A DNA stretch of 64,000 nucleotides from Octopus vulgaris. Its lineage: Eukaryota. The notes under the pieces were generated by a model. That model saw only the letters and a list, made by a program, of their open reading frames with translations, was not told the DNA's origin and ran no database searches. Each line of letters opens with the position of its first letter. Position 1 is the stretch's first letter. Shown piece by piece: positions 7,103 to 63,931 of the stretch. The stretch is from positions 165,540,001-165,604,000 of the forward strand of contig OX597815.1 in assembly GCA_951406725.2 (NCBI GenBank). The letters run 5' to 3'. Position numbers and translations under genes: made by a program.

Positions 7103-7135
7103 TATCATGAATAGTGATTGCGAAACTGGTCGATA
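7103..7135 (+). ncRNA. Minimal type I hammerhead motif (A3-U8 variant) in the PLE 3' region
   Basis: TATC-ATGAATA-GT(GATT)GC-GAAAC(TG)GTC-GATA; stem I TATC/GATA. Confidence 0.65.
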
Positions 7136-7429
7136 CATTAAAAAATATACGTATTTTCCTTTTTTTAATTTCTTATATATATGTTACAACTCACCCACGT
7201 GGGGATAATCGAAATTCCTATATATATATATATATATATATATATATAGATATAGATGGCGCATATATAAACCAATTTCAACGGATTTCGCCCAAATTTG
7301 ACGTCGATGTAAGTTTGGTTTAAAATAAAGAACTTGATTACCTTAATAATTCTAACTTAATCCCGGGAAAAGCTGGGTTATACTGCTTATACATACATAT
7401 ATATATATATATATATATATATATATATA

Positions 7430-7710
7430 ATGGTCTCTCCTGTCAAAGATAATTTATATGTGTGTTCAGGTTTTGCCGAACGACCTACAAAAACGATATC
7501 TTTTTATAATGATCAAATGTATGTGCAGCACGTAAGCTCACTCTCCCCATCAAATCGACGTTGTCTGAACAGGTGCACTGTGTACCACCCGTCAGGTATC
7601 AAAGTGATCATAGAGTAACGTGAGATGAAGTGTTTTGCTCAAGAGCAGAATGCACACCTGGTCTAGGAATTGAAACTACAATATTGTGATCGAGAATGCA
7701 ACATACAACT
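7430..7710 (-). mobile_element. tRNA-derived SINE, head type D, diverged
   Basis: GAAGTGTTTTGCTCAAGA segment shared with 46752-46992 and 42505-42815. Confidence 0.6.
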
Positions 7711-7926
7711 TCTCTCCCCCTCACACACACACACACATACACTTTCACTTGGCTATGGCAAGAAGGGACTTAACTCATGTTAGCAAACTTCAAAATTGGC
7801 AAACGTTATGGTTGAAAATATATTTTTACCGCTATCCGCGGGTGCTTCGGGAAAAAATAAGTTGACAAAAACCAGGTAGGGTAGTGACGAATGTCCTCCT
7901 AATATATATATATATATATATATATA

Positions 7927-8500
7927 CGTGGTCTGATCAGTAAGTATTAGAACTGTTGCTATAGAGGAGGCTAAAGCATGCAGAAAGAAGCCGCTTCACG
8001 CAGATTGACATTCAACTCTGCTGTGCACGCGCACTAAGTTTTAATCTTCTAGCTTACTTCTGCTGTTTACAGCAGTGCTTGGAAGGAACTTGTGTAGCAT
8101 GTGTTCGTCGCATTAATCACGAGAGAGAAAGTTGTCATGGGCCTACGCAAAATTGCAGAAAGTGTATGGAGAGTAGTGTATGAGCCATAAACAAGTGTAC
8201 AAATATTTCAGACGTTTCCAAAATAGCCGAAAAAATGTCGATAGTGACGTGCGTTCTGGGAGACCCGCAACCAGCAGAACTGAGAAAAACATTGCAATTG
8301 TGAGGGGAATTCGTTGAATCAGCATCCGTGAGTTATCAGATGATGTGCAGATTAGTTACGGTTCAGTTCAGTTCATTATCACTGAAGATTTGGGAATGAG
8401 ACGTGTGTCTGCCAAGTTTGTGACAAAACTGCATTCAGCTAACTAAAAAGAAACTTGGGTTTCCGTTGCACAAGATCTTGAGTGTGTCGAGAACGATGAA
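7927..8500 (+). mobile_element. Mariner 5' fragment, same family as 4200-5079
   Basis: TA-CGTGGTCTGATCAGTAAGTAT terminus; degenerate N-terminal transposase coding to ..MRRVSAKFVTKL. Confidence 0.9.
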
Positions 8501-9014
8501 GACATATATATATATATATATATATATATATATATATGCAGAAGGGAGAGTACGTGTGTGTGTATGTGTGTCTGAATGGGAGGGAGAGAAAGAGATAGTT
8601 AGATAAACAACAAGAGATAGATAGATATGCAGATGATAGATAGATGATAAATAGACAGATAAAAGCCAGTGGTTACCATTTCATTAAGAGAGAGTCTGAA
8701 CACTCAGATTTAATAGAAAGACACCATGTGTGAAACTGGGTGTCAATATATTAAAAAAACTCTAGTTCGACCAAATGGATTTTGTTTCATCCGAAGGTAC
8801 GTTAAGTATTAAATTAGTAAATTACGGCAAACCTTTTATATACAAATATCTAGAAAGAAAGACGAGTATATTGAAAGGCAGAAAGATTTCATGTAGGCAA
8901 GGAAAACTTTGTAGACGCCTTAGTACAAGGGTAATATTGGTAGTATAATGAGCGCATTGGATAAAATGGTGATGAAAATGATGGCGATGATGTTTGTGAT
9001 AATGAAAGAGGCAA

Positions 9015-9572
9015 TAAGGGTTTCAAATTTAGGCACAAGTCTATCAGGTTTACGGGGAGGGGAAGTTGATTACATCGACCCCAGTACTTGACTGGTACTT
9101 ATTTTATCGAAGTTGAAAAGAATGAAAAGCAAAGTTGACTTCGGTGGAATTTGAACTCAGAACGTGAACACGGACGAGATGCCGCTAAGCATTTTTCCCG
9201 GTGTTCAAACGATTCTGCCTGCTCGCCGCCAAAAGATAAAGGTAACATTGGTAATAGCCTAGTGAGCGCAGCGGATATGGTGTAGTAAATGAAGATGATG
9301 ATGATGATGGTGATGATGATGATGATGATACTGGTGTTAATGAAAGAGATAATGGTATCAAATTTTGGCACAAGGCCATCAGTCTTTGAGAGAAGTGGGT
9401 CTAGTTAATTACATAGACCCCCAATGCTCAACTGGTTCTTATTTTATTGACCCAGAAAGAATGAAATGTAAAGTCAACCTCGGTGGAATTTGAACTCAGA
9501 ACGTAAAGCGACGAAATGCCGCCGCTGAGTATTTTGCCTGGCGTGTTAACGACTTTGCCTGCTCGCCCACCT
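9015..9572 (-). mobile_element. Two family A SINE copies (about 9015-9230 and 9352-9572)
   Basis: GGAATTTGAACTCAGAACGT..GCTCGCC reverse-complement heads. Confidence 0.8.
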
Positions 9573-9599
9573 TAGGACAAGAGTAGAGTAATAGTAACA

Positions 9600-61232: not shown

Positions 61233-61612
61233 TAGGCGTAGGAGTGGCTGTGTGGTATGTAGCTTGCTTACGAACCACATGGTTCCAGGTTCAGTCCCAC
61301 AGCGTGGTACCTTGGGCAAGTGTCTTCTACTATAGCCTCGGGCCGACCAAAGTCTTGTGAGTGGATTTGGTAGACGGAAACTGAAAGAAGCCCGTCGTAT
61401 ATATGTATATGTATATCTGTATGTGTGTGTGTCTGTGTTTGTCCACCCGACATCGCTTGACAACCGATGCTGGTGTGTTTACGTAACTTAGCGGTTCGAC
61501 AAAAGAGACCGATAGAATAAGTCCTGGGGTGGATTTACTCGACAAAAGGTGGTGCTCCAACATGGCCACTGTCAAATGACTGAAACAAGTAAAAGAGTTA
61601 AAAGAGTAAAGA
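61233..61612 (+). mobile_element. Family B SINE (CORE-like), full length
   Basis: tRNA-like head, ACCTTGGGCAAGT core, internal microsatellite, (AAAGAGT)n tail. Confidence 0.9.
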
Positions 61613-63550
61613 GTTATGGTATATTCTGTTAAGAACGTAGTAGAATACAATATAAAGCTCATCCACTTTCAGATTTAGCCTGTGTTATCCAGTAGTAGTA
61701 TTATATGTATCGTGTGAGGAAACAACTAGATCTCTTAATTCAGGGAAACAGTAGCATAATCAAGTACTTGTATGTATGCATGCATGTGTATATGTATGTA
61801 TGTATGTATGTATGTATGTATGTATGTATATATGTATTTATGTATGTATGTATGTATGTATGTGTGTGTATGTGTGTATGTATGTACAATTCAGTTTTAT
61901 CTTACGATAATTTTTTTATTTGTAGCAGGTAACGAATTCTATATTAGGCAGTAACAAGAATTGTTTCTTGTAAAAGCACTTGGCTTGAAATTTCGAGGAG
62001 GACATTGGTTAATGAAATTAAACCCTGCATGTGACTAGTACTTTATTCTACCGATATCGCAGGGATGGAAGGGAAATTTGACCTCGGCTAGATTCGAATT
62101 CAGACGTTAAAAACTGAAGAAATATGTCTAGTGCTTTTTAAATGATAAAACAAAAGCGTTACAAAAGAGAAAAACAATCGAAAGAAACGCATACTCTCTT
62201 ACGAAGTAATGATTTATTAAATATTGGAGCTATAACGTATTTGTTGATACCATGCGAATGATCAACAATTTAAGGAGATAACATGCATTTTATCATTGGA
62301 CTTTTATGGAGAAACAGATGGCTTCTGTTTTGAACAGAAATTTTTATATCTATGTTGCCGTATTTATGGTATCTATTATTTATAAGCTTATTGAAAACTT
62401 GTAGGTTTCCTGTTTTTAAACAGGTTTATCTTATTCGGAATAATTTGTGAAAAGGGATTACGAGTATGAGCGAGTCTTCTGAACGTTGTTTTTCGTTACG
62501 CGAACAAGAATAAGTGGTTCTATTAATGTCGTTTGATAAATGATGGAGCCAGTAGACATTTGGGCTGGATGCCAACACGAAAATATATGGCAGAATTTGA
62601 TTTGTGCCATGTATACGACTTTGAAAAAGCTCATTCTTGTGTATTACTATAGATAAATAATCAATATGTTCAGAGTTATGTGTTTTATTTAAATTTAGTC
62701 TCAGGGCTCCATGTTGGAAATTTTCGTCTTCACTAGAATGATGACCGCACACAATAATACCAGAGTTTCGATGACAGCTAATAAGCGTCTGATAAATGTT
62801 TAGTTGCACATGACTGGGAAATTAATTTTTCGTACGAGATAAGATACTGAGAGTATTGACTATTTACTTGAGGGATGGATCAATATGTGGTTTTCAATTT
62901 AAAATTCTTATCAAATATGATTCATAGAAATATAAATTAATCAACAAATTCTTTACTGTTACCATCAAATTTAAGCTGCTGGATATCTTCAGTGCAAGAG
63001 TAAAACAATAAATAGATACATGCACATATGTATATATATATATATATATATATATATATATATATATATATATATATATATATATATATATAAAGCATAA
63101 ACACACACACGCATATATGTATATATATATATATATATATATATATACACACAAATATACCTATATTCATATTTAGAAGAAGCAACAGAACGATTCAAGG
63201 TCCGAGAGCTTCGTGAGTTTCGAAACTTGAGTCACTCTGTTGCATCTGCTACATATTCTTTTCTGCTCTAGGTACAAGATCCGAAATTTTGGGGGAGGGG
63301 GCCAGTCGATTAGAACGACCCCAGTACGCAACTGGTATTTAAATTATCGATCCCGAAAGGATGAAAGGCAAAGTCAACCTCTACGGAATTTGAACAGACG
63401 AAATGTATTCGTATTTTGTACTTCATTTTGTTTACGTTCTCTGACGTCCTGTACCCATATATGCATATGTATATACATATATAAATACGTACATATATGT
63501 ACGTATACATGCATATATTATTATTATTATGTAATATATATATATATTAA

Positions 63551-63600
63551 ATAATAATAATAATAATAATAATAATAATAATAATAATAATAATAATAAT
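63551..63600. repeat. (AAT)n microsatellite
   Basis: Direct reading. Confidence 0.95.
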
Positions 63601-63647
63601 AACAATAACCATATATATATATATATATATATATATATATATATATT

Positions 63648-63850
63648 CAATTAGAGAAAACACAGAGAAAAAGAAAAAAAAAGAAACAAACGTTTGGACG
63701 TGGCAACAGCAATGTATTAATAAGATGCTGAGAGAAGGAAAAGAGTAGAAGTTTTAAGTTTCGAGCATAGTTCTACTTCGGAAACAGGAAGAAACTGGAA
63801 AGTCCAAGACTAGGGAAGAAGTAAATCGCCAACAATTACGTGCGGTTAGA
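63648..63850 (-). mobile_element. Degenerate pLTR-like copy of the 27640-27885 family
   Basis: Minus strand GTTTCCGAAGTAGAACTATGCTCGAAACTTAAAAC. Confidence 0.6.
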
Positions 63851-63893
63851 TATTTTTGAAGTATATATATAGAACCATTCTATTTTAACAAAA

Positions 63894-63931
63894 CTGTCCG
63901 ACTAACGGGAACGTGAAACTCTGAGTAACAG
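63894..63931 (+). ncRNA. Degenerate hammerhead motif (3-8 pair broken)
   Basis: CTGT-CCGACTA-ACG(GGAA)CGT-GAAAC(TCTGA)GTA-ACAG. Confidence 0.55.

What the first reader, a model, noticed from the sequence alone, without database searches (positions are those of the whole stretch)
7103..63931. About 9 distinct hammerhead-bearing mini-element families in one window, with 3-8 core covariation
Seen: type I hammerhead folds at 7103 (AUGAAUA), 11899 (UUGAUAA), 16865/53727 and 56085 (UUGAAAA), 60161 (CUGAAGA), 22900/54545 (CCGAUGA) and 27746 (CCGACGA), plus decayed ones at 15838, 17892, 55196 and 63894. Flanking sequences differ between families and most abut (TA)n. Established: C3-G8 is a tertiary Watson-Crick pair of the active hammerhead, so U3-A8 and A3-U8 preserve it. 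Inference: selection on catalysis across a large PLE/retrozyme community that CUGANGA-only searches would undercount.
Basis: partly seen in the sequence, partly recalled or inferred. Interest (0 to 1): 0.85.

Follow-up and report, generated by a model that had tools for sequence, protein, structure and literature searches.

The report
Hammerhead variants in Penelope-type jumping genes
This stretch of animal DNA holds 18 copies of a predicted self-cutting RNA motif from about ten families of Penelope-type jumping genes and their protein-free passengers; one core base pair is swapped among all four pairings across this genome while always staying paired, which likely reflects selection for cutting, and two passenger families carry insertion marks suggesting the Penelope enzyme likely copied them from RNA circles.

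Summary
A descriptor that leaves positions 3 and 8 free finds 13 type I hammerheads in the window versus 0.66 in shuffles; Rfam finds none at its curated thresholds. Nine families were checked genome-wide. Every majority core is Watson-Crick at 3-8: five C-G, three U-A, one A-U. A tenth family, outside the window, is G-C. The unpaired cores in the window are private decay. Inserted copies decay at the flanking rate, so selection acts on source lineages, not on the copies. Families F (A3-U8) and E (U3-A8) are 3' ends of Neptune-type Penelope-like elements (PLEs). A and B are ORF-less 362/357-nt retrozymes. Their insertions carry the PLE signature: (TA)n targets, divergent arms and two fixed ends 45-60 nt apart, with read-through of the cleavage site. 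Related PLEs elsewhere also show all four pairs, with at least 7 switches on a 28-taxon RT tree. PLE hammerheads, retrozymes and natural U3-A8 are published. Natural A3-U8/G3-C8 and this retrozyme footprint were not found in my searches, but one key paper was unavailable. The scan noted a similar footprint on a ribozyme-less repeat in another genome. Cleavage is untested.

The parts
6354..6815 (+). 5'-truncated C-terminal end of a Neptune-type PLE ORF (Cys-rich linker, then GIY-YIG), preceded by (TA)n; family F
   Evidence: Pfam PF01541 E 1.9e-06; 87% identical to the end of a 635-aa RT+GIY-YIG frame in L287
7103..7135 (+). Family F minimal hammerhead, core AUGAAUA (A3-U8), about 290 nt after the ORF stop
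   Evidence: A-U in 27 of 29 scored family copies (28 of 30)
11316..12115 (.). Family B retrozyme insertion: two divergent arms of a 357-nt ORF-less unit, (TA)n on both sides, one short and one long 3' end
11532..11575 (-). Family B hammerhead, core UUGAUAA (U3-A8), inverted arm
11899..11942 (+). Family B hammerhead, core UUGAUAA (U3-A8), 6-bp helix I, CAAAUA loop 2
   Evidence: U-A in 29 of 29 copies
15838..15925 (-). Decayed hammerhead-like copy, core CUGAUGA (family J; approximate limits)
   Evidence: one relative at 73% with the same core; not checked at family level
16862..16900 (-). Family E hammerhead, core UUGAAAA, stem II mismatch
17892..17969 (-). Family I decayed hammerhead (copy core CUCAGGA; family keeps C3-G8)
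   Evidence: C-G in 19 of 20 copies
22900..22951 (+). Family C minimal hammerhead, core CCGAUGA (C3-G8, U4C)
   Evidence: C-G in 23 of 28, C4 in 24 of 30
27746..27780 (+). Family D minimal hammerhead, subfamily with core CCGACGA
   Evidence: relatives in the random sample L055, L066
53727..53762 (+). Family E minimal hammerhead, core UUGAAAA (U3-A8); 3' end of a second Neptune-type PLE
   Evidence: U-A in 28 of 29; collinear upstream PLE ORF in 7 of 30 loci
54545..54592 (-). Family C hammerhead, inverted arm, core CCGAUGA
54758..54805 (+). Family C hammerhead, direct arm, private C3U decay
55196..55230 (+). Family D hammerhead, private C3U decay (family core CUGAAGA)
   Evidence: C-G in 27 of 30
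55748..56717 (.). Family A retrozyme insertion: inverted 5'-truncated arm plus 2.1 tandem 362-nt ORF-less units, (TA)n on both sides
55917..55952 (-). Family A hammerhead, 5'-truncated, inverted arm, core UUGAAAA
56085..56126 (+). Family A canonical-type hammerhead, core UUGAAAA (U3-A8), extended helix I
56447..56488 (+). Family A hammerhead, second tandem unit
60161..60204 (-). Family G hammerhead, canonical core CUGAAGA; very young family
   Evidence: 40 of 40 scored copies identical over 154 nt; C-G in 28 of 30
63745..63785 (-). Decayed family D-like copy (approximate limits)
   Evidence: assigned by eye
63894..63931 (+). Family H hammerhead, private G8U decay (family core CCGACGA)
   Evidence: C-G in 22 of 27

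Best explanation
The motifs are type I hammerhead folds at the 3' ends of about ten retroelement families: two sit behind Neptune-type Penelope-like ORFs, two are ORF-less tandem retrozymes, all were likely inserted into (TA)n by a Penelope reverse transcriptase-endonuclease, and the always-paired 3-8 position likely records selection for a cleavage-competent fold in the source RNA of each lineage. Steps. (1) Shown: family cores are Watson-Crick at 3-8, copies end at fixed sites in (TA)n, have variable 5' ends and often form two divergent arms. (2) Inferred from the Anolis PLE in vitro work (PMC11167929): the protein cuts both strands of AT-rich DNA and starts cDNA at two internal RNA sites. 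In A and B each insertion appears to use one site per arm, giving one short and one long end (the PLE 'tail'). (3) Inferred: the short self-complementary helix III makes the ribozyme cut as a dimer in tandem transcripts, releasing monomers that circularise. (4) Inferred, about 55%: for A and B the RT runs round such a circle, giving up to about 10 near-identical units in one event. (5) Shown: once inserted, copies decay neutrally, so host selection on copies is not needed.
For: Motif excess over shuffles. Ten of ten family majorities are Watson-Crick at 3-8; nine of the ten queries excluded the core. F: PLE ORF match in 29 of 30 loci, with RT and GIY-YIG in L287. E: collinear ORF in 7 of 30 loci; random 10-kb stretches 1 of 40. 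Independent set: among 97 PLE-like loci from public contigs, 27 distinct loci have a sense-strand hit. Of these 26 are Watson-Crick (21 C-G, 3 U-A, 1 A-U, 1 G-C) and 1 is U-G inside an ORF; shuffles give 5 Watson-Crick of 18 hits. The RT tree needs at least 7 paired switches, counted by hand, with no mismatched lineage. A: 23 of 24 complete arms end at one of two sites, 24 of 24 run into (TA)n, and 10 of 11 divergent pairs have one short and one long end. B: 36 of 42, 33 of 42 and 11 of 17. Arms running more than 10 nt past the predicted cleavage site: 19 of 24 and 33 of 42. Array-private variants are shared by all units and both arms in L319 and L026, and by all units in L030 and L013. Circular fold z = -8.6 (A) and -3.2 (B). 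Helix III is a perfect palindrome in 7 of 10 families and one base off in 3.
Against: No cleavage, circle or transcript was shown. In vitro, hammerhead mutants did not impair insertion by the Anolis PLE, and no RNA-seq read ends were seen at its cleavage site (PMC11167929). Eight of nine Xenopus retrozyme dimers showed no cleavage (bioRxiv 10.64898/2026.07.22.740005). No autonomous partner was linked to A, B, C, D, G, H, I or K: Neptune-seed matches were 0, 2, 0, 0, 2 and 1 of 30 for A, B, C, D, G, H and look like neighbours; I and K were not tested. A Penelope-type endonuclease seed showed no consistent downstream hammerhead in 30 loci. Six of 17 B pairs do not fit the short/long rule. The absence of arms stopping at the cleavage site is partly built in, because the A and B queries spanned that site. 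Family samples are the best 20-30 matches, so they lean young. Monomer minimum-energy folds of F, C and G do not give the hammerhead, as expected for dimers but not proof.
Confidence: 0.78

Rival explanations
1. The hammerhead fold is kept as a protein-binding or RNA-folding element of the PLE cycle, or hitch-hikes on it, and cleavage is not what is selected.
For: Hammerhead mutants did not affect insertion in vitro (PMC11167929). Naiad PLEs thrive without canonical hammerheads (PMC8557442). PLE hammerheads cleave weakly (PMC4209133). Four window families or subfamilies carry U4C, which lowers activity in vitro (PMC3088659).
Against: The 3-8 pair is a core contact whose single mutants kill cleavage and whose double mutant partly rescues it. 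It stays paired in 10 of 10 families here and in 26 of 27 outside loci, through repeated double substitutions.
Confidence: 0.12
2. Families are PLE-mobilised as described, but the tandem arrays of A and B come from uncleaved multimeric transcripts of a homogeneous source array, or from DNA-level expansion after insertion, not from a circular template.
For: Unprocessed RNA was the dominant substrate in vitro. The 2026 preprint favours local amplification by unequal crossover. Shared private variants also fit a homogeneous source array or a recent expansion.
Against: Arrays of about 10 and 5 units (99.2-99.4% and 98.9-99.4% identical to the window unit) still end at the two fixed sites with an inverted arm. 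5' break phases are scattered around the unit. Both units fold as strongly self-paired circles. Units of this size give abundant circRNA in mussel (PMC7229834, passages).
Confidence: 0.35
3. The motifs are chance matches in AT-rich, microsatellite-laden DNA, picked out by eye.
For: Rfam finds none at gathering threshold. The loose descriptor gives about 5 chance hits per 400 kb; three extra window hits (41334, 45240, 51184) may be of that kind.
Against: 13 hits versus 0.66; the motifs belong to high-copy families with conserved stems at a fixed distance from element ends.
Confidence: 0.01

Closest known systems
Minimal hammerheads in PLE pseudo-LTRs (Cervera and de la Pena 2014, PMC4209133; read parts 1-2 of 4)
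   Same: Type I topology, short helix I, palindromic helix III, many sequence families per genome, mostly solo truncated copies; U3-A8 covariation reported in Schistosoma (about 1,300 hits).
   Different: Here all four Watson-Crick pairs occur as family states in one genome (A3-U8 in F, G3-C8 in K) and U4C is a family state. Those are not mentioned in the parts read.
Neptune-clade PLEs (as described in Craig et al. 2021, PMC8557442; passages)
   Same: Single ORF, RT then Cys-rich linker then C-terminal GIY-YIG; (TA)n bias; 5' truncation, inverted copy, terminal tail.
   Different: Clade assigned by motif only, with no reference-labelled tree. No full-length copy with both pseudo-LTRs was recovered.
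Animal non-LTR retrozymes (Cervera and de la Pena 2020, PMC7229834, passages; Li, Clavereau, Pollet, bioRxiv 10.64898/2026.07.22.740005, parts 1-3 of 5)
   Same: ORF-less tandem units of about 350-390 nt, type I hammerhead in each unit, GC under 50%, strongly self-paired circular fold, co-occurring PLEs.
   Different: A and B have U3-A8 cores. Their link to PLEs here is the insertion footprint (two fixed ends, one per divergent arm), whereas the papers argue from co-occurrence and pseudo-LTR homology. No circRNA was shown here.
Natural hammerhead core variants (Perreault et al. 2011, PMC3088659; section 8 and passages)
   Same: Natural U3-A8; U4C tolerated in a viroid; U10.1-U11.1 tolerated (seen here in G and most B copies).
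   Different: Rare single examples there; here whole high-copy families, plus A3-U8 and G3-C8.

Membership tests
Type I hammerhead ribozyme | Three helices around G5 A6, A9, G12 A13 A14, A15.1-U16.1 and non-G 17 | tested here: met
Type I hammerhead ribozyme | Watson-Crick pair between positions 3 and 8 | tested here: met
   10 of 10 family majorities
Type I hammerhead ribozyme | Match to an Rfam hammerhead model at gathering score | tested here: not met
   0 hits; my reading is that the models fit neither minimal nor variant cores
Type I hammerhead ribozyme | Site-specific self-cleavage | not testable with these tools
   needs transcription assays
EN+ PLE, Neptune type (families E, F) | One ORF with RT and C-terminal GIY-YIG | tested here: met
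   L287 frame: RVT_1 E 1.1e-06 (28.9 bits, just under the 29.6 cut-off) and GIY-YIG E 1.6e-06; 502 homologues; E ORFs 33-67% identical in pieces
EN+ PLE, Neptune type (families E, F) | CX2-5CxxC linker and CCHH motif | tested here: met
   Linker read in both translations; both Cys between the GIY and YIG-like motifs present in L287, one lost in the window copy; His residues judged by eye
EN+ PLE, Neptune type (families E, F) | Phylogenetic placement among named Neptune references | not tested
   tree has no named references
EN+ PLE insertion pattern (all families) | 5' truncation, adjacent inverted copy, two alternative 3' ends (tail), microsatellite target | tested here: met
   Inverted arm in C 14/30, D 4/30, E 3/30, F 2/30, G 21/30, H 18/30; A 11 pairs in 13 loci, B 17 in 23; two ends clear in A, B, G, H, tails seen in C, E, F; I, J, K not tallied
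Autonomous PLE (families C, D, G, H, I, J) | Linked RT/GIY-YIG ORF | tested here: inconclusive
   None linked within 1.5 kb for C, D, G, H; two G copies share 1,688 nt of non-coding sequence; I and J not tested
Non-LTR retrozyme (families A, B) | ORF-less tandem repeat of 150-450 nt with a type I hammerhead per unit, GC under 50% | tested here: met
   362 and 357 nt, GC 0.41 and 0.47
Non-LTR retrozyme (families A, B) | Expressed as circular RNA | tested here: inconclusive
   No run on record as RNA; only contigs available

The most novel reading that the evidence does not exclude
Animal retrozyme circles are direct templates of the Penelope enzyme. A PLE dimer primes both cut strands of a (TA)n target at two different internal sites of one RNA circle and rolls round it, writing multi-unit arrays in one step. 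Meanwhile PLE-borne hammerheads freely swap their core 3-8 pair among all four Watson-Crick states, a natural diversity largely invisible to Rfam and CUGANGA searches.
Probability: 0.45. Interest if true: 0.68.

Novelty: new variant of a known kind. Interest (0 to 1): 0.5.

Why it matters
Which enzyme mobilises animal retrozymes, and whether circles are the template, is an open question that rests so far on co-occurrence and homology. Families A and B give near-identical young elements with two mapped candidate RT start sites, which can be tested directly in an existing PLE in vitro assay. The repeated paired switches at 3-8 are comparative evidence that PLE hammerheads are selected for the active fold, against in vitro data saying cleavage is dispensable. 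Practically, hammerhead censuses in animals are too low: a CUGANGA search keeps 4 of 10 motifs in a genome sample and 1 of 14 in this window. A rough extrapolation gives some 60,000 motif-intact copies in this genome (27,000-120,000).

Tried and rejected
Rfam at gathering and E-value thresholds: no hammerhead seen; shown hits were microsatellite noise. ORF list of the window: only the GIY-YIG frame was followed up. Expression: no RNA holder listed for unit A; 20 listed runs hold half or more of its words, with RNA status only guessed. Four runs were laid as contigs. One 392-nt contig equals one unit plus 30 nt, which fits a cyclic assembly path, but a tandem transcript or DNA would give the same, so it is not counted. 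Looking for partners of C, D, G, H: upstream ORF listing was uninformative, and a Penelope-type endonuclease fragment search gave 150 matches but no consistent downstream hammerhead in 30 loci. The G hammerhead next to a Neptune ORF in L221 interrupts that ORF before the endonuclease and was treated as a nested insertion. A MAFFT alignment of hammerheads across families was out of register and discarded. Host selection on copies was rejected. Window hits 41334, 45240 and 51184 were treated as probable chance and not followed. Lunse et al. 2017 (PLE hammerhead dimers, cited in PMC6765202) is not held; it and the supplements of PMC4209133, PMC8557442 and the preprint, which I did not see, may already show A3-U8 or G3-C8. 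Earlier scan notes: none on this genome or unit A.
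Full report
Setting. The window is G000:C2:165540001-165604000 of a 2.8-Gb assembly. It is about 34% GC and full of microsatellites. The repeat landscape recalls a cephalopod; that is recalled, not tested. Named homologues of the element protein include bivalve proteins.

Observation. All 13 named sites are present. I wrote a type I descriptor that requires helices I, II and III and the fixed core but leaves positions 3, 7 and 8 free (and 4). It gives 13 window hits against 0.66 in 50 local dinucleotide shuffles. 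Nine hits have a Watson-Crick 3-8 pair and a pyrimidine at 4, against 0.04. With missed and decayed copies there are 18 motifs in 14 insertions and 10 families. Rfam finds none at gathering score. Forty 10-kb stretches taken at round coordinates on 22 contigs give 10 such hits against 0.9 in shuffles. That is about 23 per Mb, or roughly 60,000 genome-wide (27,000-120,000 on Poisson error). The window is about six times richer.

Family cores. I searched G000 once per family and read the core in the best 20-30 loci; all queries but A's excluded the core. A is U-A 30/30 (14 places). The rest: B U-A 29/29, C C-G 23/28, D C-G 27/30, E U-A 28/29, F A-U 27/29, G C-G 28/30, H C-G 22/27, I C-G 19/20. 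A family K, first seen in the random sample and absent from the window, is G-C 30/30. The window's unpaired cores (54762, 55200, 63898) are private changes. U4C is the majority state in C, H and I and in the 27750 subfamily of D. In the six older families, core positions deviate from the column majority in 46 of 1174 cells and other positions in 667 of 16069 (CpG excluded, p=0.76). Copies therefore decay neutrally, and the pairing must have been kept in the source lineages.

What carries them. Positions 6354-6815 translate into a Cys-rich linker and a GIY-YIG domain. This lies about 290 nt upstream of the A3-U8 hammerhead. A longer copy has a 635-aa frame with RT and GIY-YIG, the layout of Neptune PLEs in PMC8557442. 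Of 30 F loci, 29 match this ORF. Seven of 30 E loci have a diverged relative collinear upstream. No ORF was linked to C, D, G or H; I and K were not tested. Two G copies share 1,688 nt of non-coding, U-rich sequence, and G is very young (40 of 40 scored copies identical over 154 nt). A and B are ORF-less units of 362 and 357 nt in arrays of up to about 10 units, folding as self-paired circles with z -8.6 and -3.2. This fits non-LTR retrozymes.

Independent test of covariation. The PLE alignment retrieved 97 loci from public contigs. Twenty-nine loci, 27 distinct, have a sense-strand hit: 21 C-G, 3 U-A, 1 A-U, 1 G-C, and one U-G inside an ORF. The other 68 gave no hit; I did not check why. Five shuffles gave 18 hits, 5 of them paired. 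On an IQ-TREE RT tree of the 26 paired loci plus E and F, the non-C-G states fall in five places. By hand count they need at least 7 paired switches, including U-A next to A-U twice. Deep nodes are partly weak and the root is midpoint. The variation is thus a general PLE property, not special to this window.

Insertion footprint. Copies end at fixed distances from the hammerhead and run into (TA)n, while 5' ends vary. Many have an inverted arm upstream. In A, 23 of 24 complete arms end about 204 or 264 nt after the core start, and 10 of 11 divergent pairs have one of each. In B, 36 of 42 arms end at about 208 or 252, and 11 of 17 pairs have one of each (one locus per insertion, 13 and 23 loci). 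G and H also show two ends. PMC11167929 (parts 1-2 of 4 read) shows that a PLE cuts and extends both strands of AT-rich DNA and starts at two internal RNA sites that delimit the genomic tail. The A and B ends match that signature. Nineteen of 24 A arms and 33 of 42 B arms run past the predicted cleavage site, and none stops at it; the queries spanned that site, so this is partly built in. Variants private to an insertion are shared by its units. A linear cleaved monomer cannot template multi-unit arms. A circle or an uncleaved multimer can.

Mechanism. Shown: families, cores, ORF links for E and F, footprint, neutral decay. Inferred: dimer cleavage through palindromic helix III (perfect in 7 of 10 families), circularisation, two-site priming by PLE protein in trans, and rolling cDNA synthesis for A and B. 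Against: cleavage was dispensable for insertion in vitro, 8 of 9 Xenopus dimers did not cleave, and no RNA evidence was obtained here.

Prior knowledge. PLE minimal hammerheads, many families per genome and U3-A8 are in PMC4209133. Natural U3-A8, U4C and U10.1-U11.1 are in PMC3088659. Retrozymes and PLEs as candidate mobilisers are in PMC7229834 and the 2026 preprint. PMC6765202 was seen as passages. Searches for A3-U8 or G3-C8 returned no paper with A3-U8 and one listing with a single G3-C8 mention (PMC3884650, not read). Searches for hammerhead plus octopus, retrozyme plus tail plus inverted and Penelope plus octopus plus Neptune listed nothing that by title or abstract reports this. Lunse et al. 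2017 could not be read and may cover the variants.

Verdict. Real, correctly read by the first stage, and a known kind of system with two additions: all four 3-8 pairs as natural family states, and a PLE footprint on retrozyme arrays. Interest 0.5; new variant of a known kind.

Noticed in passing
L341:2873-2922 and L371-L400 (not in the window): Young, abundant hammerhead family K with core GUGAACA (G3-C8) and two stem II variants; partner element unknown.
   Followed up: partly
window 34747-35205, 37059-37426 and about 20 dispersed relatives: A SINE-like repeat also occurs as 184-nt tandem units; no hammerhead hit in it. It is the commonest repeat of the window.
   Followed up: no
window 4198-5080 and 7925-8500; 58654-59858: Other inverted-arm pairs without a detected hammerhead; they could be ribozyme-less PLE-type insertions or DNA transposon relics.
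   Followed up: no
window 53990-54410: Decayed frame resembling a Tc1/mariner transposase N-terminus (by eye).
   Followed up: no
L311:5440-7730; L312: Family G carries over 1.6 kb of U/GU-rich non-coding sequence with internal repeats upstream of the hammerhead, 96% identical between copies.
   Followed up: partly
family B loci L074-L099: Most B copies have U10.1-U11.1; the window copy has G-U and two older copies have G-C at that pair.
   Followed up: partly
L048, L050, L049, L056, L067, L317, L314, L336: Further hammerhead families not present in the window, including more U3-A8 cores.
   Followed up: no
L481-L497: PLE ORFs, several with hammerheads, sit in contigs filed under bacterial genome bins; probably host contamination.
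   Followed up: no
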